A stretch of 64,000 nt of DNA from Thermoanaerobaculia bacterium (lineage in GTDB: Bacteria; Acidobacteriota; Thermoanaerobaculia; Gp7-AA8). A program made the position numbers and the translations under genes. Of the stretch, positions 29,355 to 42,007 are shown piece after piece. The DNA is taken from assembly GCA_035636095.1 (NCBI GenBank), contig DASPZU010000118.1:1316-65315 (forward strand), given 5' to 3'. The stretch's first letter is position 1. Each line of letters opens with the position of its first letter. The notes below the pieces were generated by a model, which had not been told where the DNA came from, did no database searches, and saw only the letters and a program-made list of their open reading frames with translations.

Positions 29355-31295
29355 TTGCGTAAGCCTTTCCTGGTCCTTTTGATTCTTTTGACCACCTGCG
29401 GGAAGCACGAGCAGGCAAAGCCCAACGTCCTCCTCATCACCCTCGATACCTTTCGCGCCGATCGCGTCACTCCGGCAACGCCGAATCTGCTGAAACTCGC
29501 GCAGAGAGGCGAGTGGTTCCAGCATGCGGATTCGGTCGCGCCGCTGACCTTGCCCTCGCACGCGACCATTCTCTCCGGCATCCTTCCTCCGCATCACGGC
29601 CTGCGGAATAACGAAGTCGGCTCGTTTCCCGATCGCCCTACTCTCGCCACTGTTTTCGCGAAAGGCGGCTATCGCACGGGCGCGTTCGTCAGCGCATTCG
29701 TCCTCGATCGGCGCTTCGGCCTTTGGCGTGGATTCGAAACGTACGACGACGCGATCGCCCGCGATCCCAACGACACCGCGGCGATGTTCGAGGCCGAACG
29801 CCGCGGCGGCGAGACCGTCGATCGCGCGCTGGCGTGGCTGAGCCGCAGCGACGGACGGCCATGGTTCGCGTGGATCCATCTCTATGATGCGCACGCCCCC
29901 TACGCGCCGCCCGCCCCGTTTCCGCAGACGTACGACGGCGAAGTGGCGTACGTCGACGCGCAAGTCGGCCGGATTCTGAGCGCGATCGATCCCGCGAAGA
30001 CGATCGTCGTCGTGGTCGGTGATCACGGTGAGGCCCTCGGCGAACACGGCGAGCTGACCCACGGCCTGCTGGTCTACGAATCCACGCTGCATGTTCCGCT
30101 CATCATGGCGGGACCCGATGTGAAGCCCAACTCAGTGCTGCAGCCGATCAGCACCGTGGAAGTCGCGCCGCGGATTGCGGCCATGGTCGGCTTGTCGATT
30201 CCGCATGACGCGGCATCGGATATCTACGCCGAATCGGAGTATGCCAAGTCATTCGGATGGAGCGGCCTCACATCGATTCGCAGCGGAAATATCAAGCTGA
30301 TTCGCGGCGCGACGTCCGAGATGTTCGATCTTGCCCGCGATCCAAACGAGACCAGGAACATCATCGATGATCGGCGGCGGCTTTACGGTCAGCTCGGCAA
30401 ACGGCTGGACGCGATTGGCGCGACCGCGATAGCCGCCACCGGAACGGTCGACGCCGAGACCCGCGCGAAACTCGCGAGCCTCGGCTACGTTGCGCCGGGT
30501 GCGGCCGCCAGGGGCAGCGGCCGCGATCCGCGCGAGATGGCGCCGCTTTTTCGACGCTACGAAGAAGCACAGGCCAAAAATTCGATCGCCGATCTCGAGC
30601 AGCTGGTCTCGAAAGATCCCGCCAATCCCGTTTTCCGTTCCACGCTCGCCCGCGCGGTCAAGCTCCACGGAGCGATCGATCGCGCCATTGCGCTTAATCG
30701 CGAGGCGGTCGCGCTTTCTCCTGCCGATCCCGACGCCTGGTACAACCTCGCCTCGGCGCTTCAAGAGCGCGGACGCACGGCCGAGGCGAGACAAGTCGCG
30801 ATCGAGGCGATCCGACTCGATCCTCATCGTCCCGACGCGCACAACATCCTCGGAATCGCCGACATCGAAACCGGCGACCCCAGCGGCGCCGAAACCGAAT
30901 TCCGAAAAGCGATCGAGCTCGATCCTCGCAACGCCCGCGCCTGGAACAACCTCGGCAACGTTTTGCGAAGTGCCGGCCGCACAGCAGACGCCGAAACTGC
31001 GTATCGCACAGCCCTCGAGATCACTCCCACCTACGCCGATCCTCTGAACGGACTGGGGGTGATCGCCGTGCAGGAGGGGAGGAGCGCCGAGGCCATCGCC
31101 GATTTCGACAAGGCGCTGGCGGCGGCGCCTAACTTCTATGAAGCGCGGCTCAATCGGGCGATCGCTCTGCAATTGTCCGGGAACATCTCGGGCGCGCGAA
31201 CCGAGCTCCAACACCTGCTAACACACCTGCCCAAGGGGAGTGCGCAGCGGAAAGCGGCCGAAACTCTGCTCGCTCGGCTACCACGGAAGCGTTAA
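29355..31295 (+). CDS. sulfatase-like (alkaline phosphatase superfamily) hydrolase fused to C-terminal TPR repeats, lipoprotein
   Basis: Signal/lipobox LLTTCG. LLITLDTFRADR and VGDHGE are sulfatase-type metal-binding motifs. The C-terminal ~250 aa are TPR repeats (AWYNLA, AHNILG, AWNNLG). Confidence 0.7.
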   Translation: MRKPFLVLLILLTTCGKHEQAKPNVLLITLDTFRADRVTPATPNLLKLAQRGEWFQHADSVAPLTLPSHATILSGILPPHHGLRNNEVGSFPDRPTLATVFAKGGYRTGAFVSAFVLDRRFGLWRGFETYDDAIARDPNDTAAMFEAERRGGETVDRALAWLSRSDGRPWFAWIHLYDAHAPYAPPAPFPQTYDGEVAYVDAQVGRILSAIDPAKTIVVVVGDHGEALGEHGELTHGLLVYESTLHVPLIMAGPDVKPNSVLQPISTVEVAPRIAAMVGLSIPHDAASDIYAESEYAKSFGWSGLTSIRSGNIKLIRGATSEMFDLARDPNETRNIIDDRRRLYGQLGKRLDAIGATAIAATGTVDAETRAKLASLGYVAPGAAARGSGRDPREMAPLFRRYEEAQAKNSIADLEQLVSKDPANPVFRSTLARAVKLHGAIDRAIALNREAVALSPADPDAWYNLASALQERGRTAEARQVAIEAIRLDPHRPDAHNILGIADIETGDPSGAETEFRKAIELDPRNARAWNNLGNVLRSAGRTADAETAYRTALEITPTYADPLNGLGVIAVQEGRSAEAIADFDKALAAAPNFYEARLNRAIALQLSGNISGARTELQHLLTHLPKGSAQRKAAETLLARLPRKR

Positions 31296-31341
31296 CTTGG
31301 TCTATAGTCGGCGTCAATTTTCGGATTCGAAGGAGGTCCAT

Positions 31342-34209
31342 GTGAAGAGGCCACTCTCTTATATTGTTCTTTCCCTACTTCTACTTCTGACCGTGACGGC
31401 TGCCTTTGCGCAGACTGGTGGCGCGGCTCTCGGTGGAACCGTGACCGACGCGTCAGGCGGGGCATTGCCCGGCGTTACCGTCACGGCAACCCAAAACGCC
31501 ACCGGCTTCAATCGTTCGGTCGTGACGGGAGCCGATGGTGCCTATCGTTTTCCGTCTTTACCGGTCGGCACCTACATCGTCACCGCCGATCTTTCGGGAT
31601 TTGCCTCCGTGACGACACGCAACGTCGAGTTGAACGTTGCGCAAGAGCGTGAGCTGAACATCGCGCTCAAGCAGGCGGCGGTCAAAGAACAGATCACGGT
31701 CACGGCGTCGGCTCCGCTTATCGAGACCACACCGGCGGTCAGCACGGTCGTCAGCCAGAAGGAGATTCAGAATCTACCTCTCAACGGCCGTCAGTTCGCG
31801 AACCTCGGCACACTTGCGCCGGGAACGACGCTCTCTGTCAACGCTGACCCGACCAAGCCGGGACAGATGACTATCGCGCTGAACGGCGGCAGCGGCCGCA
31901 ACGTGAATTTCCTCATCGACGGCGGCGACAACACCGATGACACCATCGGGGGCGCGCTGCAGAACTTCAACATCGAAGCGGTGCAGGAATTCAACATTCA
32001 GACGCAGCAGTACAAAGCGGAATTCGGCCGCACCACCGGCGGCGTGCTGACGGTGGTCACCAAGACCGGGACGAACACCTTCGAAGGCAGCGCTTACGAG
32101 TTTTATCGCGACAAGAGCCTCAACTCGGAATCCGAGAGCGAAAAGCTCGGCGGGGGCGGCAAGGCGCCGTATCGCCGCAATCAATACGGAGCGTCGTTCG
32201 GAGGCCCGATCATGAGGGACCGCGCGCACTTCTTCGTCACCGGCGAGCGCACGGAACGGCCGACGAACTACATCGTCCAAACCAAGGGAATTTATCCGGA
32301 CTTCGATGGCAAGGCGATCCCCACTCCGTTCAAGGACAACCTTCTGACCGCGAAGGCGAGCGCCGATATCAACGCCAAACAGTTCCTGCAGGTGCGATAC
32401 GGCATGCAGAGGAACTCGGATAAGTACGGCGCGAGCCCGGTCATTCTTCCGAGCGCGCTCGGCACGATCACGAATACATACCACTCCATCCTCGGCGGGC
32501 ACACCTGGCAGATCAGCTCCGACAAGTTGAACGAATTTCTTTTCCAGGACACCCACTTCAAGAATTCGATCAGCCCCGATTCCACTGACCCCACCATCGT
32601 TTATCCGTCGGGTGTCTCGATCGGACAGAGCATCAACGCGCCACAATCGACGACACAGGTAAAACGCCAGTTTAAGGACGACTTCGCGTGGTCCATGAAT
32701 TTCGGCGCGATGCGCCACGACTTCAAAGTCGGCGCGAACTACATCGACGAGCCGATCCTGGGCGGCGACTTCACTGTCGGCACCACCGGCCAGTACACAC
32801 TGACCGCCGACAAGCAGGGATCGCCGGTGGCCGACATCACGATCTTCGGCGGCTTCTTCGGCAACAAGACCCCCATCAAGCAGTACAACTATTACGTGCA
32901 GGACGACCTGGCGGTCAATAAAAACCTGACCGTCAATGTCGGCTTGCGTTACGACCTCTGGAAAGGCTTCGATCTCGATCAGCACACGAATCCGATCTGG
33001 CAGGCGCTCTCCACGCAAACGAAGTACAACGAGGCCTACTTGCAGCCCTTCAAGAACGGCGGCGGGGGGAAGCTGAAGAACGACACCAACAACTGGGGTC
33101 CGCGCATCGGCTTCTCGTACGACCTGCGCGCCGATTCGAAGAACATCATCCGCGGCGGTTACGGACGCTATTACGATTTCCCGTACACGAACGCCACGAT
33201 TCTGTTCCCCGCTGCGGCAGTGCAGTCGAATTACGGGGTCGTTTACAACAACAGCGATCCCAAAGGGATCAAGAACGCGAACGGCACGTTCTTTCAGCCC
33301 GGCCAGCCGCTGCCCCCCAATCAAATCACCGGGAGTCAGGTCCCTCCACCGAATGAAGTCGCTTCTCCCACCTTGGCCACACCGTACTCCGATCAGTTCT
33401 CGCTTGGATATTCGTGGCAGGTCAATCCATGGCTCGGACTGAATGTCGACGGATCGCACATCAGCTACAAGGACATTCCGTTCCGCTTCCGCGCGAATCC
33501 AACCGATCCGTCGACCGGCAAGCGGCGCTTCCCGGCGTTCGGCAACTTCCGTCTCTGGATGGGCAATGGTTTCGCGAAATACAACGGCCTGAACATCGGC
33601 GGACATGCGCGTCTGGGCGATCGCTTCGAGCTGCAGGGCTTCTACACAATTTCGCACGCGACCGGCAACATCCTCGCCGGAGCCGACGAGTTCCGCATCA
33701 CGGCCGCAGGTTATCAGCCCGATCTACGGACTGTGCGCGATCAGAGCGTCAATCCGTACGATCCCAACTGCAGCGCCTGCACTGGTCCTCTCGACACCGA
33801 TGCGCGCCATCGCGTGACGCTGAGCGGCATGTATCGCGCTCCGTACGGCATCAATCTCTCCGGCATTCTGCGCTACCACTCGGCAACGCCGTACACCGAT
33901 TGGGCCGGCACCGACCTCAATGGCGACAAGTTCAACTTCGATCTGCCCCCCGGCGTCAGCCATGTGAACTCGCTGCGGGGTTCGTCGTTCTCGCAGCTGG
34001 ATGTGCGCGTGGGCAAGGCGTTCAAGTTCTTCGGCAACTACGGCGTTGAACTGATCGGCGAAGTGTTCAACCTGTTCAACTCGAAGAACGAGGCCGGTTT
34101 CGTTGGCAATCGTTTGTCGAAAGCGTACAAGCAGCCCAGCTTCTTCGCTGGCGATCCCGGCCACGGCGAGCAGCGCCTGGCTCAGCTCGGCTTACGCGTC
34201 ACGTTCTAG
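31342..34209 (+). CDS. TonB-dependent receptor-like outer-membrane protein with CarboxypepD_reg domain (paralog 2)
   Basis: GTG start 6 nt after AGGAGG. LGGTVTDASGGALPGVTV..GAYRF. 955 aa ending ...LRVTF. Confidence 0.8.
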   Translation: MKRPLSYIVLSLLLLLTVTAAFAQTGGAALGGTVTDASGGALPGVTVTATQNATGFNRSVVTGADGAYRFPSLPVGTYIVTADLSGFASVTTRNVELNVAQERELNIALKQAAVKEQITVTASAPLIETTPAVSTVVSQKEIQNLPLNGRQFANLGTLAPGTTLSVNADPTKPGQMTIALNGGSGRNVNFLIDGGDNTDDTIGGALQNFNIEAVQEFNIQTQQYKAEFGRTTGGVLTVVTKTGTNTFEGSAYEFYRDKSLNSESESEKLGGGGKAPYRRNQYGASFGGPIMRDRAHFFVTGERTERPTNYIVQTKGIYPDFDGKAIPTPFKDNLLTAKASADINAKQFLQVRYGMQRNSDKYGASPVILPSALGTITNTYHSILGGHTWQISSDKLNEFLFQDTHFKNSISPDSTDPTIVYPSGVSIGQSINAPQSTTQVKRQFKDDFAWSMNFGAMRHDFKVGANYIDEPILGGDFTVGTTGQYTLTADKQGSPVADITIFGGFFGNKTPIKQYNYYVQDDLAVNKNLTVNVGLRYDLWKGFDLDQHTNPIWQALSTQTKYNEAYLQPFKNGGGGKLKNDTNNWGPRIGFSYDLRADSKNIIRGGYGRYYDFPYTNATILFPAAAVQSNYGVVYNNSDPKGIKNANGTFFQPGQPLPPNQITGSQVPPPNEVASPTLATPYSDQFSLGYSWQVNPWLGLNVDGSHISYKDIPFRFRANPTDPSTGKRRFPAFGNFRLWMGNGFAKYNGLNIGGHARLGDRFELQGFYTISHATGNILAGADEFRITAAGYQPDLRTVRDQSVNPYDPNCSACTGPLDTDARHRVTLSGMYRAPYGINLSGILRYHSATPYTDWAGTDLNGDKFNFDLPPGVSHVNSLRGSSFSQLDVRVGKAFKFFGNYGVELIGEVFNLFNSKNEAGFVGNRLSKAYKQPSFFAGDPGHGEQRLAQLGLRVTF

Positions 34210-34260
34210 TCAAGTCACAACCGTCCATGGTGAAGGGCGCCCGAAACGGGCGCCCTTTTT
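34199..34260. repeat. 62-bp direct repeat, left copy (includes the TBDR stop and the terminator hairpin GAAGGGCGCCCGAAACGGGCGCCCTT)
   Basis: Matches 34829-34890 at 59/62 positions. Confidence 0.8.
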
Positions 34261-34766
34261 CGCACTTGCTGAGCTGGATGCAGTGAGTCAAAACGGGGCG
34301 GCACATTGAGTTGAACGGAAACGTTGCTGGCCCGCACGCCTGAGGCGTTGAGATCGTTCTTGACGGCGTCTGCGATTCGATCGGCAGCATCGCGTCGCCG
34401 GTCGATGAGATCGGCCGTCGTGAGCTCGGATGAGGATCGGGTAACGGCATACTGCACGCGCTGCCGCAGCGAGGCGCACCACGTGCCCGGCGGCCAGTCA
34501 GGCGGAACGCTTTCGGGGACTACGTATGTGAACCGGATCCGAATCGGAATGGCATTGTGCGTCGTGGTTGTGCCGCTCGCGACGTCGTCAAAGGACATCG
34601 TGGTCCGGCACGCAATTCCGCGCGCACGGACAAAGAACATCGACCTCCGCATGACGAGATGTTGTCGGTCGCGAAATACGGTGACGCTGCCGGCCGGCTG
34701 ATAGTGCACAAAAACCAGCAGCGCGAGGATCGCGGCGACAAGGATTAGAACCGTGATTGTTCGCAT
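34215..34766 (-). CDS. membrane-anchored protein, paralog of the N-terminal domain of the 39658-41955 protein
   Basis: N-terminal TM helix. IRFTYVVPESVPPDWPPGTWCASLRQRVQ / ADRIADAVKNDLNA..VQLNVPPRF aligns with VTFVYEPPAQLPSDWPAGNWCDSLGQRVQ / SDKIAEAIQRELSA..ARFDLPPGW. The C-terminal ~17 aa are antisense to the repeat hairpin, so the end is uncertain. Confidence 0.45.
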   Translation of the reverse strand: MRTITVLILVAAILALLVFVHYQPAGSVTVFRDRQHLVMRRSMFFVRARGIACRTTMSFDDVASGTTTTHNAIPIRIRFTYVVPESVPPDWPPGTWCASLRQRVQYAVTRSSSELTTADLIDRRRDAADRIADAVKNDLNASGVRASNVSVQLNVPPRFDSLHPAQQVRKRAPVSGALHHGRL

Positions 34767-34828
34767 CAACTGAACGATGCGTGATCCTGGTCTCAGGATA
34801 CAAGGTCGACCCCGGTTAGGTCAGGCAG

Positions 34829-34890
34829 TCACGTTCCAGTCAAGTCACAACCGTCTATGGTGAAGGGCGCCCGAAACGAGCGCCCTTTTC
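34829..34890. repeat. 62-bp direct repeat, right copy (stop codon TAG->CAG; hairpin retained)
   Basis: GTCACGTTCCAGTCAAGTCACAACCGTCTATGGTGAAGGGCGCCCGAAACGAGCGCCCTTTT. Confidence 0.8.
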
Positions 34891-34907
34891 TTGGTGTTCG
34901 CGAGATA

Positions 34908-36551
34908 ATGATGCCCATGCGCAAGTTAGCCACGGGTTGCGCCTTGCTGGTTTTTTCTCTCGCCGCTGCCGGACAACAGATCTCTCCCCTGACCGAACGG
35001 ATCGACGTTACCGTCATCAACGTCGACGTCACCGTGACCGACCGTGCCGGCAATCCAGTGGCCGGTCTGACGCGCGACGATTTCGAGATCTTCGAGGACG
35101 GGCGCCCGCAGAAGATCACGAACTTTTACATCATCCAGAACGCTGCCGTGCGAAGTGGCGCGGCGGCCGAAAGCGCTTCAGATTCGCCGCAGTTCCGGCG
35201 AAAAGTCGTCCTGATGATCGACAACAACTTCATCCTGAAGCCGCAGCGCGACCTGGCCTTGAAAAAAATCGATGACTTTTTCGATAAGCATTTCGATGGC
35301 AACTACGAATGGTCCGTGATTACGGTGGGGCACAACGTCGAATCCATTCAGCCCTTCACGACCGACCGGACCAAGATTCATGCGGCGATCGACCACGTTC
35401 GCCAGATGGAAACGTTCACGCTGCAGCCGGAGATGAATCGCGCGCTGTTGTCCGATAGCACCCGCAAGGCCACCATGGGCGATGCCGCCAGTGGCTTCGC
35501 TTATTCGAATTCGGTGAACTTTCACAGCCGCGAGCAGACCATGCGGATGCTCCAGGCCACCACCAACACCGCCCGCGCAGTCATTCAGATGTGCAGGGCC
35601 TTCGGCTCAGCGGGCGGCAAGAAAATCGTCATCCTGGTGACCGGCGGCATGGAGCGAAACACCTCATTCCAGGCCTATGAAACCGGCGAGGATCGCATCC
35701 TTCAGCAGATGAAGTTCGATGCCAGCCTCACGCTCGATGAAATGGTCCATGAAGCGAATGCCGCGAACTTCAACCTCTACGTCGTGAAAGCCAGCGGCCG
35801 CGGAATGATCGCCCCCCAGCACGACGTCTCGAACAAATCGTCCGGGCTCAACCTCTACTCCACGAACATTTTCCAGCAGGGCGGCGGCGCCGGACCGATC
35901 GACACCAGCGACGTCGATTCGACTTCACTGACCCTGGCCCTCGGCACGGGCGGCCTGTATCTCACCGGCACCGAGACCGGCCGGAACTTCGAGCGGATCG
36001 ATACCGACACCTCGAATTACTACTCCCTCGGTTATTCGCCGCAACATCCCGAGGATGGCGATTACCACCGGATCACGGTGAAAGCGAAAAAGGCCGGCCT
36101 CAAGATCCGGCACCGCGAGGGCTACGCCAGTCTTTCCTTTGAACAACGACTGGAGCAGACGCTGATCGCGCCGCTGACTTTCCAGTCAGAACGCGGCTCG
36201 CTTCCGGTCACGGTTGAGGTCGGAGTTCCGGCCGATGCGGATCATGTCCGTGTTCCGGTTGTGGCGCATCTGCCGATGACTCGGATCACAGTTCTGCCAT
36301 TGGGCGACGCGTACGTTGGCCGCGTCCACGTCTATCTGTCCGTTTATGACAGCAGCGGAAAGAACGTGGGGTACCACCATCTGATCAAGGATGTGACTGT
36401 GCCGAAGGCTGAGCTCTCGAAACTCGGCAATGCGCAGTTTCAATACAAGATGAATGTCGCGTTAGCGAAGGGTGAATTTACGCTGGTGGTCACGCTTCGT
36501 GACGATGTCACGAATGATATCGGCACCGCTCTTGAAAACGTGCGGCTATAG
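34908..36551 (+). CDS. VWFA-related Acidobacterial-domain protein (TIGR03436-like), tandem paralog 1
   Basis: Signal peptide. Conserved N-terminal block ERIDVTVINVDVTVTDRAGNPVAGLTRDDFEIFEDGRPQKITNFY, then a VWA-like region. 547 aa. Confidence 0.75.
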   Translation: MMPMRKLATGCALLVFSLAAAGQQISPLTERIDVTVINVDVTVTDRAGNPVAGLTRDDFEIFEDGRPQKITNFYIIQNAAVRSGAAAESASDSPQFRRKVVLMIDNNFILKPQRDLALKKIDDFFDKHFDGNYEWSVITVGHNVESIQPFTTDRTKIHAAIDHVRQMETFTLQPEMNRALLSDSTRKATMGDAASGFAYSNSVNFHSREQTMRMLQATTNTARAVIQMCRAFGSAGGKKIVILVTGGMERNTSFQAYETGEDRILQQMKFDASLTLDEMVHEANAANFNLYVVKASGRGMIAPQHDVSNKSSGLNLYSTNIFQQGGGAGPIDTSDVDSTSLTLALGTGGLYLTGTETGRNFERIDTDTSNYYSLGYSPQHPEDGDYHRITVKAKKAGLKIRHREGYASLSFEQRLEQTLIAPLTFQSERGSLPVTVEVGVPADADHVRVPVVAHLPMTRITVLPLGDAYVGRVHVYLSVYDSSGKNVGYHHLIKDVTVPKAELSKLGNAQFQYKMNVALAKGEFTLVVTLRDDVTNDIGTALENVRL

Positions 36552-38034: not shown

Positions 38035-39661
38035 CGTCATGTCGGGCTTTGTCGTGGGCGTTCTGGCGACAGCAGCTCTTGTCTCAGCACAGCTCCCGCT
38101 CGTCGAACGCGTCAATGTCTCTGTAGTCAACGTCGACGTAAGCGTATTCGACCGTTCGGGACGGCCGGTCACCAAGTTGCGCCGAGACGATTTTCAGATC
38201 TTCGAGGACGGAAAGCCGCAGAAGATCACCAACTTCTATATCGTCGAGCATTCTGTTCCACGAGCTGAAACGACGCAACAGGAACAAACGCACGGTTCGG
38301 AAAGCCGTTTTCGCCGCAAAGCGATTCTGCTCGTCGACAACATTTTCATCGAGAAGCCGCGTCGGGATGCAGCGCTGGCGACGGTGCAGAAGTTCATGGA
38401 GGGCCGTTTCGCCGGCGATTACGAATGGTCGGTAGGCACGATCGGTAGCGGCATTCACACGATTCTTCCGTTCACGAGTGACAAGACGAAGATTGCCGCG
38501 GCAATCGATCTCGTGCGCCGTGGTGGAACGCTTCCAAAGCGTGATGCTGTAGACCTTGGCATGCTGGCCGACGAAACCGCGCTGCGTGCCGTTCGGGGAG
38601 CACGTGAAAGCGAGCAGACGCGGACGGACCTTGCAAGAAGCATCAGCGCTAACGAAGGCCTGGCAGCTTTGTCTGAACTCGCGAAAGAAGTGATCGACGC
38701 TTGTCGTGGATACAGCAGCGCAGATGGTAAGAAACTCATCGTCTTGGTCACGGGTGCGATTGAAATCGACAACCGTCGTCCAACGATCGACGATGCGGTC
38801 AATCAACCGGCATGGAAGCTTCAGCCGCGTGAGAACCGCAGCGAAACCGGCCGAATCCTCGAAGCGATGGTGCGAGAGGCCAACACTGCGAATTTCAATG
38901 TGTACGTCTTGAACGCCTCGGGAGTTGTCAATCCGGTCCCTAGCGACGTCTCCAACCATGCGTCGGAGTATGTGGCTCAAGGAGGGTTCAATTCACCGCA
39001 CACCGAACGCGATTTCGACTCTTTTCCGCTGTCGCTCGCTATGCAAACGGGCGGAGCATATCTGCCCAGCAACGATCTCGGCGCGTCCTTGCGCCAGGTC
39101 GATGAGGAAAGCTCGACTTATTACTCGCTCGGTTATAGCCCGCCGCATTTCGAAGACGGCAAGTACCATTCGATCGAAGTCCGCGTGACAGGTTCCGCGA
39201 TGACGGTTCGCCATCGGATGGGCTACGCCGATCTCTCGGCCGAGCAAAGAGTCGAGGACGCGATGCGTGTAGCCGTCGCTCCCACCGCCCTCCCGCATCA
39301 GATTCCGGTTCAAATCGAGATCGGGAAATCACGCCAAGAGAACCACAAGATGCATCTGCCTGTGACGCTGATCGCACCAATGAGAAGCGTCGCGCTGTTG
39401 CCGCGCGACGGCCTGAGCGTTGGTCGCGTCCATATCTACCTCTCGGTGTTCGATCAGGCTGGAATCAATATCGGGTTCGATCACCGCACCCAGGACTTGG
39501 CGTTGACGCCGGAGCAATTGCAAAAAGTGACTGAGCTCAACAGCAACTTCCGATATTTCCTGAGCGTAGCCCTCAAACCGGGAAAGTATCGCGTCGTGGT
39601 CGCTCTTCGCGATGACGTCAGCAGCGAGATCGGTATCACTGCTGCGGATGTTCAGGTCTAA
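38021..39661 (+). CDS. VWFA-related Acidobacterial-domain protein, tandem paralog 3
   Basis: ERVNVSVVNVDVSVFDRSGRPVTKLRRDDFQIFEDGKPQKITNFY. The start is ambiguous between ATG 38021 and ATG 38039. Confidence 0.7.
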   Translation: MPRSNVMSGFVVGVLATAALVSAQLPLVERVNVSVVNVDVSVFDRSGRPVTKLRRDDFQIFEDGKPQKITNFYIVEHSVPRAETTQQEQTHGSESRFRRKAILLVDNIFIEKPRRDAALATVQKFMEGRFAGDYEWSVGTIGSGIHTILPFTSDKTKIAAAIDLVRRGGTLPKRDAVDLGMLADETALRAVRGARESEQTRTDLARSISANEGLAALSELAKEVIDACRGYSSADGKKLIVLVTGAIEIDNRRPTIDDAVNQPAWKLQPRENRSETGRILEAMVREANTANFNVYVLNASGVVNPVPSDVSNHASEYVAQGGFNSPHTERDFDSFPLSLAMQTGGAYLPSNDLGASLRQVDEESSTYYSLGYSPPHFEDGKYHSIEVRVTGSAMTVRHRMGYADLSAEQRVEDAMRVAVAPTALPHQIPVQIEIGKSRQENHKMHLPVTLIAPMRSVALLPRDGLSVGRVHIYLSVFDQAGINIGFDHRTQDLALTPEQLQKVTELNSNFRYFLSVALKPGKYRVVVALRDDVSSEIGITAADVQV

Positions 39662-41955
39662 CGCGGCATGCGCTGCAACATCGGCTGGTTTGGATTGAGC
39701 TGCAGCGAACGGCGGAAGTAGCTCTCCGCAGCGGAGCGATCGTCAAGGCACATCTCGGCCAGGCCGGCGGAAGTGTAGGGAACGAAATCGTTCGGATTGA
39801 GATGTTGTGCAGCGATGAAATCTTCCAGGGCGCCTCGGCAGTCTTTCCGCTCGATTCGATAACGTCCGCGAAACATTCGCAGCTCCGCATCCTCCGGCTT
39901 TGCCGCCACCGATTCCTCGAGGAGTTTCAAGCTTCGATCGACATGACCGCCACGCTGGTATTTGATCGCGCGCTCGATCACGTAACGCGAAGCTTCCGGT
40001 AGTCCATTGGTCAGGGCTTTGATCAGCAGCGCATCGGATCGCGCCATATCCTGGTGACGATCGAATAGCAAATCGCTCAGATTCCATGCCGCTGATGCCA
40101 GATTCGGATCGATGGCGAGCGCACGATCAAACGACGTGACGGCGTCAGCAATCCGGCCGTCATGCTTCAGAATGAGGCCTTCGTTGTTGTACGCACCGGC
40201 CGTCTTCGTTGACGTGCCGGCGGCCGCTGGACGAGCGGCGGCCGATTCACCCGTTCCGATGTAGCCAAGCGCGCGCAGTTTTGCGATTTCTTCCGCCGCC
40301 GCCTTTGTGGTCTGCCTGACGCTCGATCTGAATGGCGCATAGTGGGAGCGGTAGTCGACCACGCGACTGCTTTCGCCGTCTGTAAGCGAGGGGCCAGCAA
40401 CTCCATCGGCGCGTGGCATCTGCGTCAGGCTCAGCAAAGTCGCGCAGATCTGCCGGATCGATCCGTGAATCGAGTGACCGGCTTGTGCGCGAATGCCCTC
40501 GCCCCAGGCGAGGAAGATTCCTTCGTTTCGATGCCACTTGGCTGCTGTCGCTGTGGCGGCGCTCGAGAACTGCGTCGGCCGCCCTTCCTTCCATTGGAAG
40601 CCGTGGTCGGAAGCCAGCACGATCATGGCGTGCTGCCGTTCGGCGGCCGCGAGGAATTCGCCGAGGATCGAGTCGATGCGTCGGAAGTAGAGCTCGGGAA
40701 CCTGGTGATAGCGTTCGTACTCTTCCTGCGTGACCTCCGGCTGCTTTGGCGGAGCGTAAGGCGCGAAGATATGGCCGATGGTGTCGGTGCCCTCGAAGTA
40801 CACGATGGTCAGATCTGGAATGTCGCGCGCCACTGTTTCTGTGCCGGTCCGGCGATAAACCTCCGTCTGCACCAGAATTCGGCGCAGAGCGCTGCCTGGT
40901 TTGGCGTAAGGATTCGCTTCATGTGTGAGCTCTTCGTACTGCTGCTGATCGAGCCACGGTAGAAATTCGCGCAGCGCATTGAAATCCGTTGCGCGCTCCG
41001 AGGCCGCCAGCGCTTCGCGACCCCACACCTCGCGCGACGGCGGAAAAATGATTCCTGGTGGTGGGGTGCTCTCCGAGTAGAGAAACGTGAACAGGCGATC
41101 GCTGACCATTAGACCGTGCACCGGTTCAGCAGGATAAGTAGCCCAGAGACCGAAAACGGCCACGCGCTTCCCGCCCATGGAGGCCATGTTCCAGATCGCC
41201 GGCACGCGCCGTTCGTCGCTGGTGATCGGCTCCTTCTCGCCGGTCGTCGGATTGAAACGCACGAAGTCCAGGATCTGGTGCTCGAGCGGACTGACGCCGG
41301 TCATCATCGTCGTCCACACCAACGGCGAAAGAGGAGGATGCTCGGTGGTCAGGTACCCGCTGATGCCTTCCCCAACGAGGCGGGCCAGATTGGGCATGAC
41401 GCCGCGCGCGATGTAGTCGTCGAGCAGTTGCCAGTCTGCGCCATCGAGTCCGATGAAGATGATCGGGCGTGACTTGCGCGCCAGCCGCGCGATCTCTGCG
41501 ATCGCGCGCGTCCGTTCCCATCCCGGCGGAAGGTCGAAGCGAGCCGAGATGCTGCTGGTCGTGAGATGCGCGGCCGAGAGCTCGCGCTGAATCGCCTCCG
41601 CGATTTTGTCGCTGGTTTGGCGCGGCGACTCGACGTTGACCGCGTTTGCGTTAAGGATTCTCTGCACCCGCTGCCCGAGCGAGTCGCACCAGTTCCCGGC
41701 GGGCCAATCGGATGGAAGCTGTGCCGGCGGCTCATAAACGAAAGTGACTTTCAAGTCGAATGGATCGGCGTGCAGAGTTCGATCGAACAGCAGACGGCCG
41801 GCAGCCATCGGAACCGTGCATGGCTCGCCGAATGCCGGCAACCCGATCCGGCTGGTGGAAACCTGAATGGCGTCGCCGTGCCGCACCACACGGGCCGTGT
41901 CGGCTGGCCGGCATGAAAGAGTGAGGAGAAAAATCGACAATAGGAGGCGCCGCAT
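39658..41955 (-). CDS. three-part lipoprotein: N-terminal domain shared with the 34215 gene + alkaline-phosphatase-superfamily (type I phosphodiesterase/sulfatase-like) + C-terminal TPR repeats
   Basis: 765 aa. IIFIGLDGADWQ and LASDHGF are AlkP-superfamily metal-ligand motifs. The C-terminus is TPR-like. Its stop overlaps the VWA paralog 3 stop (convergent). Confidence 0.7.
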   Translation of the reverse strand: MRRLLLSIFLLTLSCRPADTARVVRHGDAIQVSTSRIGLPAFGEPCTVPMAAGRLLFDRTLHADPFDLKVTFVYEPPAQLPSDWPAGNWCDSLGQRVQRILNANAVNVESPRQTSDKIAEAIQRELSAAHLTTSSISARFDLPPGWERTRAIAEIARLARKSRPIIFIGLDGADWQLLDDYIARGVMPNLARLVGEGISGYLTTEHPPLSPLVWTTMMTGVSPLEHQILDFVRFNPTTGEKEPITSDERRVPAIWNMASMGGKRVAVFGLWATYPAEPVHGLMVSDRLFTFLYSESTPPPGIIFPPSREVWGREALAASERATDFNALREFLPWLDQQQYEELTHEANPYAKPGSALRRILVQTEVYRRTGTETVARDIPDLTIVYFEGTDTIGHIFAPYAPPKQPEVTQEEYERYHQVPELYFRRIDSILGEFLAAAERQHAMIVLASDHGFQWKEGRPTQFSSAATATAAKWHRNEGIFLAWGEGIRAQAGHSIHGSIRQICATLLSLTQMPRADGVAGPSLTDGESSRVVDYRSHYAPFRSSVRQTTKAAAEEIAKLRALGYIGTGESAAARPAAAGTSTKTAGAYNNEGLILKHDGRIADAVTSFDRALAIDPNLASAAWNLSDLLFDRHQDMARSDALLIKALTNGLPEASRYVIERAIKYQRGGHVDRSLKLLEESVAAKPEDAELRMFRGRYRIERKDCRGALEDFIAAQHLNPNDFVPYTSAGLAEMCLDDRSAAESYFRRSLQLNPNQPMLQRMPR

Positions 41956-41961
41956 AAAAAA

Positions 41962-41985
41962 AAGGCCCCGCCGAAGCGGGGCCTT
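41962..41985. terminator. bidirectional terminator hairpin (AAGGCCCCG-CCGAAG-CGGGGCCTT) with flanking A-run
   Basis: 9-bp GC stem between convergent genes. Confidence 0.7.
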
Positions 41986-42007
41986 GGATGTTACACGATG
42001 CTACTGG

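What the first reader, a model, noticed from the sequence alone, without database searches (positions are those of the whole stretch)
34199..34890. Gene insertion bracketed by 62-bp direct repeats that duplicate a gene 3' end plus terminator; inserted gene is a paralog of the N-terminal domain of a distant 3-domain protein
The last codons of the TBDR gene plus its terminator hairpin (34199-34260) reappear 630 bp downstream (34829-34890, 59/62 identical, with the TAG stop changed to CAG). Between the copies lies a minus-strand gene (34215-34766) whose product is homologous to the first ~160 aa of the 765-aa protein at 39658-41955 (...PPDWP.G.WC.SL.QRVQ...). This looks like a duplicative insertion or recombination footprint that created a stand-alone version of a domain otherwise fused to a phosphodiesterase-TPR protein. 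The small gene's C-terminal codons are antisense to the terminator hairpin.
Basis: seen in the sequence. Interest (0 to 1): 0.55.

Follow-up and report, generated by a model that had tools for sequence, protein, structure and literature searches.

The report
Gene-fragment insertion behind a duplicated terminator
In one soil Acidobacteria lineage, the front end of a three-domain gene was inserted just behind a neighbouring gene's terminator, and 62 bp of the target were duplicated in the process, leaving a small open reading frame for a lone membrane-anchored SPFH-like domain; this is a real but fairly ordinary recombination scar.

Summary
A 62-nt direct repeat (34198-34259 and 34828-34889, 59/62 identical) brackets 568 bp. 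This segment carries a 183-codon minus-strand ORF that is homologous to the N-terminal domain of the 765-aa protein at 39658-41955 (BLASTP E=2e-17).

- **Derived state:** all 64 related Thermoanaerobaculia loci with enough downstream sequence read TBDR stop, hairpin terminator, VWFA gene, with nothing in between. L087 and L077 are clean empty sites.
- **Origin:** the insert is not a copy of the resident 765-aa gene. It is the 5' part of a different ('type B') lineage of the same family. It carries 61 nt of upstream spacer with the type-B motif TTGTATCCTGAG and codons 1-169, and it is cut in the linker 8-9 residues before the phosphodiesterase domain.
- **ORF tail:** codons 170-183 are the antisense of repeat copy 1.
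- **Fold:** the domain models as a TM-anchored SPFH/Band-7-like fold.
- **Mechanism:** there is no transposase, terminal inverted repeat, integron or intron signature. Illegitimate recombination is the likely cause, but whether it took one step or several is unresolved.
- **Function:** whether the ORF is a remnant or a newborn gene is open. A 62%-identical protein that also appears to lack the enzyme part exists in another soil sample, without DNA context.

Interest is modest.

The parts
31240..34209 (+). TonB-dependent receptor gene 'TBDR1' (CarboxypepD_reg + Plug + OMP beta-barrel). Its last 9 coding nt and its stop codon are part of the repeat. The true start is probably downstream of 31240.
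   Evidence: Pfam hits. Gene calls of 938-955 aa on the public contigs. Orthologues at 60-96% identity in 60+ genomes.
34198..34259 (+). Repeat copy 1: GTCACGTTC + TAG + spacer + hairpin + TTTT. This is the working stop codon and terminator of TBDR1.
   Evidence: Orthologous stop plus GGGCGCCC hairpin in L010, L011, L087, L093 and others.
34233..34257 (+). Terminator hairpin of copy 1 (perfect stem, 3-nt loop, followed by a T run).
   Evidence: RNA fold -25.1 kcal/mol, z=-4.8.
34260..34827 (-). The 568-bp inserted segment. Read on the minus strand it holds 12 nt ending in TAA (a possible tail of a type-B receptor gene), a 49-nt spacer, and codons 1-169 of a type-B SPFH-like/phosphodiesterase/TPR gene.
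   Evidence: Absent from all related loci. Homology to type-B N-domains. Spacer motif.
34215..34766 (-). Small ORF (183 codons plus TGA). Residues 1-169 come from the insert. Residues 170-183 and the stop are read from the antisense of copy 1.
   Evidence: The AlphaFold model has mean pLDDT 82, a helix at 2-21, an SPFH-like core up to about residue 155, and a disordered tail. Foldseek hits are prohibitin, stomatin and flotillin.
34792..34803 (-). TTGTATCCTGAG, the conserved spacer motif of type-B loci, 25 nt upstream of the small ORF's ATG.
   Evidence: Single match in the window at up to 1 mismatch, against 0.06 expected by chance. It occurs exactly once, at the corresponding place, in 11 type-B loci.
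34828..34889 (+). Repeat copy 2. The stop codon is changed to CAG and a G-to-A change weakens the hairpin. It keeps the native sequence upstream of the VWFA gene.
   Evidence: Sequence downstream of copy 2 is collinear with the empty sites of L087 and L077.
34904..34919 (+). GATAAT (-10-like box), then 7 nt, then ATG 34917. This is the probable leaderless start of the first VWFA gene.
   Evidence: The same box and spacing follow the terminator in L087, L077, L074, L073, L075 and L080. This is an inference; no promoter assay or prediction supports it (one search found no sigma-70-type site).
34908..36551 (+). First of three tandem Acidobacterial VWFA-domain genes. It is the gene that directly follows TBDR1 in relatives.
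   Evidence: TIGR03436, 4e-55. Synteny.
39658..41955 (-). Resident full-length 'type A' paralogue of 765 aa. Its N-terminal domain (residues 1-165) is homologous to the small ORF. It continues with a type I phosphodiesterase / nucleotide pyrophosphatase domain and TPR repeats.

Best explanation
**What is there.** This is a lineage-specific recombination scar.

- In the ancestor, as in all sampled relatives, the TBDR1 stop codon and its hairpin terminator were followed within 20-45 nt by the first VWFA gene.
- In this lineage a 568-bp piece of DNA was joined in immediately after the terminator's T run.
- The 62 bp upstream of the insertion point (TBDR1 tail, stop, spacer, hairpin) ended up on both sides of it.

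**What the piece is.** It is the 5' end of a 'type B' member of the SPFH-like/phosphodiesterase/TPR gene family. It is not a copy of the type-A gene 5 kb downstream. It carries 61 nt of upstream spacer and the membrane anchor plus the whole N-terminal domain, and it breaks in the linker just before the enzyme domain. The truncated reading frame runs on into the antisense of the terminator until it meets a stop, which adds 14 unrelated residues.

**How it arose (inferred).** The event was illegitimate, not transposon-mediated. The most likely route is a single templated or captured insertion that duplicated 62 bp of the target. This could happen by filling in a staggered break or by a replicative template switch at the hairpin.

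**Effect of the duplication (inferred).** TBDR1 keeps its stop and terminator (copy 1). The VWFA gene keeps its native upstream sequence (copy 2). That would explain why this variant survived.

**The product, if made (inferred).** It would be a membrane-anchored, probably periplasmic, SPFH-like domain without its enzyme and TPR parts. I consider it about equally likely to be an inert recent remnant or a tolerated or functional new small protein.

**Shown:** the anatomy, the derived state, the type-B origin and the fold. **Inferred:** the mechanism, expression and function.
For: - **Repeat and ORF:**
- **Independent assemblies:** nine contigs 100% identical to the window wherever they overlap it.
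- **Empty sites:** 64 of 64 related loci lack any insertion or full second terminator copy. L087 and L077 carry the orthologous VWFA gene (81% aa) and are collinear with 'copy 1 left side + copy 2 right side'.
- **Terminator is ancestral:** the hairpin terminator is present at the TBDR1 end in relatives.
- **Age:**
  - The repeat copies differ by 3/62 (about 0.05).
  - Four-fold-site divergence to the nearest empty-site relatives is 0.30-0.62, and their spacers are unalignable.
  - The duplication is therefore younger than those splits.
  - Two of the three differences (stop to CAG, stem mismatch) are derived in copy 2.
- **Type-B origin:** the small ORF is 36-41% identical to N-domains of type-B genes but 27% to the resident one. 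It sits in the type-B clade. The motif TTGTATCCTGAG lies 25 nt before its ATG, as in L025.
- **Truncation point:** family homology runs to residue 168-169 (...QQVR), exactly to the repeat boundary. That is 8-9 residues before the IIFIGLDG start of the phosphodiesterase domain.
- **No mobile-element signature:** no transposase or integrase in the ORFs scanned within about 16 kb on either side. No terminal inverted repeats other than the hairpins. No Rfam hit. No plasmid or phage match.
- **Composition:** GC3 of 0.69 is within the range of the neighbours, 0.65-0.78.
- **Fold:**
Against: - **No source found.** No sequence more than 62% identical turned up in 1.84 billion representatives, in the word-index search or in the contig scans. 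Copy-and-paste from an intact paralogue is therefore unproven. The rest of this genome could not be searched.
- **Unusually long duplication.** A 62-bp target duplication is far longer than any standard mechanism produces. Junction microhomology cannot be scored without the source.
- **Coincidence of origin.** The fragment comes from the same gene family, and lies in the same orientation, as the gene 5 kb downstream. That is a coincidence under random capture. A multi-step local rearrangement explains it better.
- **P0008.** This protein is 62% identical, also appears to end shortly after the domain, and has a tail with a GA-x-x-GA (GGCGCC hairpin) signature. It hints that a stand-alone form may be older than the 95% repeat identity suggests.
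- **No sign of expression.** No promoter-like site or Shine-Dalgarno sequence was found for the small ORF.
Confidence: 0.65

Rival explanations
1. Multi-step local rearrangement that left a remnant. A type-B gene plus its receptor once lay in the cluster, as in L010 where it lies downstream of the VWFA genes on the minus strand. A tandem duplication, or an import by homology-facilitated illegitimate recombination, joined the region just inside the type-B receptor's 3' end to position 34198/34828. A later deletion removed everything between the first terminator and the linker of the type-B gene. The full type-B copy was then replaced by the type-A module.
For: - Orientation and content fit without further assumptions. 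L010, the closest genome with the full region, has TBDR1, VWFAs, a minus-strand type-B gene and a minus-strand type-B receptor.
- The insert's right end lies 9 nt inside a putative receptor tail ending in TAA.
- Types A and B are intermixed on the TBDR1 tree, so module replacement is frequent.
- Homology between close relatives breaks right at the TBDR1 terminator: TBDR1 is 90% identical but the VWFA genes only 41-48% in L010.
- L010 carries another OMP-tail remnant at the same junction.
- The absence of an intact source in the data is expected under this model.
Against: - It needs two or three events within the short time allowed by the 95% repeat identity.
- The putative receptor tail (TGCCTGACCTAA) matches the type-B ends (TTCACGTTCTAA) only weakly.
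- No intermediate has been sampled.
Confidence: 0.25
2. The small ORF is an established functional stand-alone gene. A domain fission was retained by selection and is shared with the organism behind P0008. The two 62-bp copies are kept similar by gene conversion.
For: - The ORF is intact and retains all nine family-invariant residues, including the Cys53/Cys97 pair.
- A complete, confidently modelled domain, cut at the linker.
- The conserved upstream motif is retained.
- P0008 is 62% identical, has a stop 36 residues after the domain, shows no phosphodiesterase motif, and has a hairpin-like GAHEGA...LH...L* tail resembling SGALHHGRL*.
- Small and P0008 form their own long branch.
Against: - P0008 is a protein-only record in the SRC catalogue with no contig on record, so it has no DNA context.
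- Its tail could be a frameshift. A weak out-of-frame match to L015 was seen (E=0.64), and the tail similarity is not statistically supported.
- At the calibrated rate of this domain, 62% identity implies dS of about 0.4. That is much older than the repeat divergence of 0.05.
- No promoter or Shine-Dalgarno sequence was found.
- The stop codon lies beyond a strong hairpin.
- All nine contigs compared are identical, so the gene has been seen in only one apparently clonal population.
Confidence: 0.15
3. The filled arrangement is ancestral, and relatives lost the segment by recombination between the 62-bp direct repeats.
For: Deletion between direct repeats is easy and is a recognised source of small variable segments (PMC2884548).
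Against: - It would require independent loss in every one of 64 loci, spanning dS 0.3 to above 0.8.
- The spacer inside the repeat is unalignable between lineages but 95% identical between the two copies, so the duplication postdates the splits.
Confidence: 0.02
4. Insertion by a mobile element or a site-specific system: IS/MITE, integron cassette, or a terminator-targeting group IIC intron.
For: The insertion point lies immediately after an intrinsic-terminator hairpin. From my own knowledge, this is a known target of class C group II introns and some IS families.
Against: - There is no transposase, integrase or reverse transcriptase. The insert is fully accounted for by spacer plus gene fragment.
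- There are no terminal inverted repeats and no Rfam family.
- It is single copy.
- The hairpin is the ancestral terminator, not an attC site.
- A 62-bp duplication is outside IS ranges.
Confidence: 0.02

Closest known systems
Small variable segments ('microdiversity') of bacterial genomes generated by illegitimate recombination (Touzain et al. 2010, Genome Biol 11:R45; PMC2884548)
   Same: - A sub-kilobase segment present in one lineage and absent in relatives.
- No mobile-element signature.
- Flanked by direct repeats, as are 10-18% of such segments in that study.
- Located at a junction where homology between relatives breaks.
   Different: - The repeats here are 62 bp. Most repeats in that study were below 30 bp.
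- They are demonstrably a duplication of the target, not pre-existing repeats.
- The content is an identifiable domain-sized gene fragment.
Templated or captured insertions with flanking duplication, by replicative template switching (FoSTeS/MMBIR-type) or fill-in of staggered breaks. From my own knowledge; not tested here.
   Same: One event can give an insert copied from elsewhere plus a duplication of target sequence. A hairpin is a plausible stalling site.
   Different: Junction microhomology cannot be assessed without the source. Such events are documented mainly in eukaryotes.
Homology-facilitated illegitimate recombination during DNA uptake (de Vries & Wackernagel 2002; Prudhomme et al. 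2002; cited in PMC2884548)
   Same: It explains mosaic boundaries at conserved gene ends, and junk left at one junction.
   Different: It does not by itself produce a 95%-identical duplication of resident sequence. It needs a very closely related donor with a different gene arrangement.
SPFH / Band-7 proteins (prohibitin, stomatin, flotillin, HflK/C, QmcA)
   Same: N-terminal membrane anchor followed by an alpha/beta SPFH-like core. Best Foldseek matches are 9o9z, 8rrh, 9z7u, 4fvj and 3bk6. There is a weak Band_7 HMM hit.
   Different: - Below the Pfam threshold.
- No C-terminal coiled coil for ring or cage assembly.
- A conserved Cys pair and a DWPxGxWCxSL motif of its own.
- In its normal context it is fused to a phosphodiesterase and TPR repeats.
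IS-element target-site duplication
   Same: Direct repeats of target sequence flank an insertion.
   Different: Those duplications are 2-14 bp, with a transposase and inverted repeats. None of these is present here.

Membership tests
SPFH / Band-7 superfamily (encoded domain) | SPFH alpha/beta core fold | tested here: met
   The AlphaFold model has pLDDT 82. The top 20 Foldseek PDB hits are all prohibitin, stomatin or flotillin, best E=1e-4. Probability is 0.99-1.0 for all but one of them (0.95). TM-scores normalised to isolated SPFH domains are 0.5-0.59.
SPFH / Band-7 superfamily (encoded domain) | Match to Pfam PF01145 above the gathering score | tested here: not met
   16.7 bits against a cut-off of 23.6, E=0.0077, residues 100-153 only.
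SPFH / Band-7 superfamily (encoded domain) | N-terminal membrane anchor | tested here: met
   Hydrophobic helix at residues 2-21 in the model. It aligns with the N-termini of type-B homologues.
SPFH / Band-7 superfamily (encoded domain) | C-terminal coiled-coil region that builds the oligomeric ring or cage | tested here: not met
   The model ends its ordered part at about residue 155, and residues 160-183 have pLDDT 43-51. In full-length relatives the next element is the phosphodiesterase domain.
Type-B SPFH-like/phosphodiesterase/TPR gene family | N-domain with the invariant residues (R32, C53, F79, Y81, W91, W96, C97, L100, V104) | tested here: met
   Alignment A1. Clade placement.
Type-B SPFH-like/phosphodiesterase/TPR gene family | Upstream spacer motif CGTTGTATCCTGAG 25-28 nt before the ATG | tested here: met
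   12/12 match at 34792-34803 (-). The hairpin that follows the motif in relatives is lost here.
Type-B SPFH-like/phosphodiesterase/TPR gene family | Phosphodiesterase (PF01663) and TPR domains | tested here: not met
   Pfam and NCBIfam find neither in the 183-aa product. The frame leaves family homology at residue 169.
Insertion sequence / MITE | Transposase or terminal inverted repeats, short target duplication, several copies | tested here: not met
   No terminal inverted repeats at the insert ends. No transposase domains. The duplication is 62 bp. Single copy in the window, and outside this lineage's own contigs in none of the 90 related loci fetched.
Integron gene cassette | attC recombination site and a nearby integrase | tested here: not met
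   The hairpin is the orthologous TBDR1 terminator in relatives. No integrase in the ORFs scanned within about 16 kb on either side.
Group II (class C) intron inserted after a terminator | Ribozyme domains and/or a reverse transcriptase ORF | tested here: not met
   No Rfam match at E<=1 in 33000-36000. The insert is fully explained as spacer plus gene fragment.
Small variable segment from illegitimate recombination | Presence/absence polymorphism under 4 kb, no mobile or site-specific signature, optional flanking direct repeats | tested here: met
   Definition taken from PMC2884548.
Campbell-type (single-crossover) integration of a circle | Donor circle carrying a copy of the 62-bp homology next to the insert | not testable with these tools
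   No donor sequence is available. In sampled type-B loci the N-domain gene is not adjacent to a plus-strand TBDR1-type terminator.

The most novel reading that the evidence does not exclude
The small ORF is a newborn gene made by domain fission. It would be expressed from the retained type-B upstream element and would produce a membrane-anchored periplasmic SPFH-like protein freed from its phosphodiesterase/TPR partner. It would be retained by selection in at least two diverged soil lineages (this one and that of P0008), with the 62-bp terminator copies homogenised by gene conversion. More broadly, the terminators of TonB-dependent receptor genes would act as preferred breakpoints for shuffling modules in these Acidobacterial nutrient-acquisition loci.
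Probability: 0.15. Interest if true: 0.5.

Novelty: new member of a known kind. Interest (0 to 1): 0.3.

Why it matters
- **Annotation.** It explains an orphan 'hypothetical protein' (HYS56277.1) as a truncated fragment of a multi-domain gene. This is useful for annotation and a caution when counting orphan genes in MAGs.
- **A dated example.** It gives a clean natural example, with many empty-site controls, of a domain-sized gene fragment lodged in a bacterial chromosome without a mobile element. The 62-bp target duplication leaves the flanking genes with their terminator and upstream sequence.
- **A recombination boundary.** It points to the receptor gene's terminator as a recurrent recombination boundary in Thermoanaerobaculia receptor/VWFA/hydrolase loci.
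- **An undescribed domain.** It also points to an SPFH-like domain family not covered by the libraries searched here (Pfam, NCBIfam).

None of this overturns current understanding.

Tried and rejected
- **Word-index homologue searches** with the small ORF, with a 15-sequence N-domain alignment and with P0008. They returned only the query itself or type-A fragments. No source gene was found.
- **Context of P0008.** The exact look-up found no contig. The cluster look-up shows only an SRC (Soil Reference Catalog) accession. No paper mentions SRR5262249.
- **Metagenome scan** with the small+P0008 alignment. It found nothing, not even the window's own sequence, so that collection lacks these samples.
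- **Possible longer repeat.** I tested whether the repeat continues upstream at low identity, because RDPGLRIQGRPRLGQAVTFQ resembles the TBDR1 tail. 25 of 61 nt match, empirical P of about 0.005-0.02. I regard this as probably chance, because those 61 nt are accounted for by the type-B spacer on the other strand.
- **P0008 tail against all fetched DNA**: nothing significant.
- **Promoter/terminator scan**: no promoter-like site. The scan also misses the obvious hairpins because of its T-run rule.
- **Rfam**, **plasmid and phage BLAST** and **Pfam on neighbouring ORFs** for mobile-element genes: all negative.
- **Population variation** among nine contigs: none, so no dN/dS or empty-allele test was possible.

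Full report
**1. Observation**

The window is from a Thermoanaerobaculia (Acidobacteriota) MAG. The small protein is HYS56277.1, 'hypothetical protein VER58_21160'.

*Repeat.* repeat finder reports a 62-nt two-copy direct repeat at 34198-34259 and 34828-34889, 59/62 identical, 630 nt apart. Each half of the unit occurs only at these two places in the window with up to three mismatches, against 0 in shuffles.

The unit consists of GTCACGTTC, then TAG (the end of the 989-codon TonB-dependent receptor ORF 'TBDR1'), a 23-nt spacer, a GC hairpin and TTTT.
- Copy 1 folds at -25.1 kcal/mol.
- Copy 2 has TAG changed to CAG and a G-to-A change that puts a mismatch in the stem, giving -18.8 kcal/mol.

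*ORF.* Between the copies lies the minus-strand ORF 34215-34766. Its product matches residues 16-147 of the 765-aa protein at 39658-41955, at 27% identity and E=2e-17. Codons 170-183 and the stop are the antisense of copy 1.

*Not an artefact.* Nine contigs, from records of four sources (JGI, NCBI, ENA, Logan) and different samples, are 100% identical to the window wherever they overlap 33700-35300.

**2. The insertion is derived**

A genome-collection scan with TBDR1 gave 63 loci. A metagenome scan with its C-terminal 400 aa gave 27 more.

In every locus that reaches the junction, the TBDR1 orthologue ends with ...ACGTTC-TAG/TGA, a short spacer and a GGGCGCCC-type hairpin with a T run. A VWFA gene (TIGR03436) follows within about 20-45 nt. 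L010 is the exception, with about 230 nt in between.

I counted formally. Of 64 loci with at least 700 nt downstream, none has a stand-alone homologue of the small ORF. None has a full second copy of the tail plus terminator; L047 repeats only 28 nt of it. The single hit, in L038, is a full-length convergent gene.

L087 and L077 carry the orthologous first VWFA gene (81% aa). They also carry the same '...cgcgagataatg..cccATGcgc' sequence found to the right of copy 2. They are therefore clean empty sites.

*Dating.*
- Four-fold-site divergence of TBDR1 is 0.30 to the nearest relatives (L012, L088, L093) and about 0.6 to L010 and L087.
- The stop-to-hairpin spacer is unalignable between these lineages.
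- The two copies in the window differ by only 3/62, so the duplication is younger than these splits.
- Two of the three differences (loss of the stop, the stem mismatch) are derived in copy 2. This is as expected if copy 1 is the working terminator and copy 2 is relaxed.

**3. What was inserted**

The small ORF is not a copy of the resident 765-aa gene. tblastn against the related loci shows two lineages of the N-terminal domain.
- 'Type A' includes the resident gene.
- 'Type B' is the lineage the small ORF belongs to: 36-41% identity to type-B domains against 27% to the resident one. The small ORF falls inside the type-B clade on a long branch.

In type-B loci the gene follows a TonB-dependent receptor on the same strand. 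The spacer between them reads TTCTAA-N(16-18)-CGTTGTATCCTGAG-GGCCCC hairpin-T run-ATG.

The 61 nt between the small ORF's ATG and copy 2 contain TTGTATCCTGAG 25 nt before the ATG, the same distance as in L025.
- The 12-mer is unique in the window, against 0.06 matches expected by chance at up to one mismatch.
- It occurs exactly once, at the corresponding place, in 11 type-B loci.
- The hairpin that follows the motif in relatives is no longer recognisable here.
- The outermost 12 nt (TGCCTGACCTAA) may be the tail of the former upstream receptor gene, but the match is weak.

At the other end, family homology (…VPPRFDSLHPAQQVR against …LPPGFERLRxVPEVAR) runs to residue 168-169. That is the repeat boundary, 8-9 residues before the IIFIGLDG strand where the Pfam phosphodiesterase match begins.

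The insert is therefore a 5' gene fragment: spacer, membrane anchor and the complete N-domain, cut in the linker. Its GC3 (0.69) is within the range of the neighbouring genes.

**4. The domain**

With an 8-sequence alignment, AlphaFold gives mean pLDDT 82. The model has a helix at residues 2-21, a beta sheet with two long helices up to about residue 155, and a disordered tail.

Foldseek against the PDB returns prohibitin, stomatin and flotillin SPFH domains as the top 20 hits (best E=1e-4). This agrees with a sub-threshold Pfam Band_7 hit.

The family has an invariant Cys pair and a DWPxGxWCxSL motif. It has no Pfam or NCBIfam model. phmmer over 1.84 billion representatives gave only 30 hits. 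The SPFH coiled-coil region is absent. This is therefore a resemblance in fold, not membership of the curated family.

**5. Mechanism**

Nothing points to a mobile element.
- No transposase or integrase in the ORFs scanned within about 16 kb on either side. The neighbours are carboxyl transferase, receptors, sulfatase-TPR, VWFA genes, Obg, EF-G, a kinase and MFS.
- No terminal inverted repeats and no Rfam family.
- No plasmid or phage similarity. The unit is single copy.

The event belongs to the known class of small variable segments made by illegitimate recombination. In that study 10-18% of such segments are flanked by direct repeats (PMC2884548).

*Preferred reading.* I favour a one-step insertion of a templated or captured fragment directly after the terminator's T run, with a 62-bp duplication of the target. 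Fill-in of a staggered break or a replicative template switch at the hairpin could produce this.

The 95% identity of the copies, against completely diverged spacers in relatives, argues that the duplication is intragenomic. The duplication leaves TBDR1 its stop and terminator. It leaves the VWFA gene its native upstream sequence, including a conserved -10-like (C/G/T)ATAAT box that follows the terminator in all relatives. That is a plausible reason why this variant persisted (inference).

*Main rival.* The main rival is a multi-step local rearrangement.
- L010 has a minus-strand type-B gene and receptor downstream of its VWFA genes. A tandem duplication or import joining that receptor's tail to position 34198, followed by deletion back to the linker, would give exactly this orientation and content.
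- Types A and B are intermixed on the TBDR1 tree, so module replacement is common.
- Homology between close relatives breaks at the terminator.
- L010 has another OMP-tail remnant at the same junction.
- No intact source was found.
- Against it, the model needs two or three events within a short time.

I cannot discriminate between the two readings without the source sequence.

**6. Remnant or gene?**

*For function.*
- The ORF is intact and all family-invariant residues are retained.
- It was cut cleanly at the domain boundary, and the upstream motif is retained.
- P0008 is a 149-aa, N-terminally incomplete protein from another soil run. It is 62% identical over residues 48-158 and stops 36 residues later without any phosphodiesterase motif.
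- Its tail (…SGAHEGARLHCRKRDL*) has the GA-x-x-GA signature of a GGCGCC hairpin, followed by LH and a final L*. This resembles the small ORF's …SGALHHGRL*. I inferred this from the protein alone, and it is not statistically supported.

*Against function.*
- No promoter-like site or Shine-Dalgarno sequence was found.
- The stop codon lies beyond a strong hairpin.
- The ORF is seen in a single, apparently clonal population.
- At the rate calibrated on full-length genes, the N-domain is 79% identical at dS of about 0.3-0.4 and about 50% at dS 0.45-0.7. On that scale, 62% identity implies dS of about 0.4, far more than the 0.05 between the repeat copies. Either P0008 is only a relative of the source (possibly frameshifted), or the repeats are homogenised.

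I leave this at about even odds.

**7. Verdict**

The insert is a truncated fragment of a different branch of the gene family, and it brought its own upstream spacer. The mechanism is unresolved between a one-step and a multi-step route. This is a well-documented example of a known kind of event and is of modest interest.

Noticed in passing
window 34857-34919: The mechanical ORF start of the first VWFA gene (ATG 34857) lies inside repeat copy 2. A -10-like GATAAT (34904-34909) is followed 7 nt later by ATG 34917. The same box and a spacing of 6-9 nt follow the terminator in L087, L077, L074, L073, L075 and L080. This suggests a leaderless VWFA mRNA whose promoter abuts the TBDR1 terminator.
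   Followed up: partly
L014-L032, L059 (upstream of the sulfatase-TPR gene); window 39658-44935: Two divergent versions ('A' and 'B') of the receptor + SPFH-like/phosphodiesterase/TPR module occupy the same position in related genomes. They are intermixed on the TBDR1 tree (for example L018_A with L059_B, L023_A with L021_B). This implies repeated module replacement.
   Followed up: partly
L010 14674-14685 and 10 other type-B loci; window 41956-42007 for type A: The spacer between the receptor stop and the N-domain gene start holds a DNA motif conserved across genomes with saturated synonymous sites. In type B it is CGTTGTATCCTGAG fused to a GGGCCCC hairpin. In type A it is a related CGTGTA(A/T)CAT..AAGGCCC. 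Its function is unknown; it could be an overlapping terminator/promoter or an RNA element.
   Followed up: no
L010 8940-9135: L010 has about 230 nt between the TBDR1 terminator and the VWFA gene. In one frame this reads like the C-terminus of an outer-membrane beta-barrel (...YTTFAFYRVVVAVRYRLTEAFGIARQVVRF*). It is another gene-tail remnant at the same junction.
   Followed up: no
window 41461-41955 (-) and homologues (alignments A1, A2): The N-terminal domain is an SPFH-like domain with no Pfam or NCBIfam model. It has an invariant Cys pair and a DWPxGxWCxSL motif, and only 30 hits in 1.84 billion representatives. It evolves much faster than the rest of the protein (41% against 72% in L038). 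Type-A members appear to have lipoprotein-like signal peptides (…LAGC, …LSC), whereas type-B members have an uncleaved-looking anchor.
   Followed up: partly
window 34780-34827 against 34150-34197: The 48-61 nt upstream of copy 2 match the TBDR1 coding tail at 41-44% identity (P of about 0.005-0.02). In frame they read RDPG...Q...LG..VTF like the receptor's C-terminus. This is probably chance, because the same bases are explained by the type-B spacer on the other strand. It is not fully excluded as a trace of a longer original duplication.
   Followed up: yes
window against L010 (8880 onward) and L093 (419 onward): TBDR1 is 90-94% identical to these relatives, but the genes after its terminator are only 37-48% identical or of a different VWFA type. 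The terminator is a sharp mosaic boundary.
   Followed up: partly
L047, about 1.9 kb downstream of its TBDR1 homologue: A 28-nt exact second copy of that locus's terminator hairpin region lies 1.9 kb downstream. It was not examined further.
   Followed up: no
window 29355-31295 and 31240-34209: The sulfatase-TPR ORF and the longest TBDR1 ORF overlap by 56 nt. Public gene calls give TBDR1 as 938-955 aa, so its real start is probably 100-150 nt downstream of 31240.
   Followed up: no
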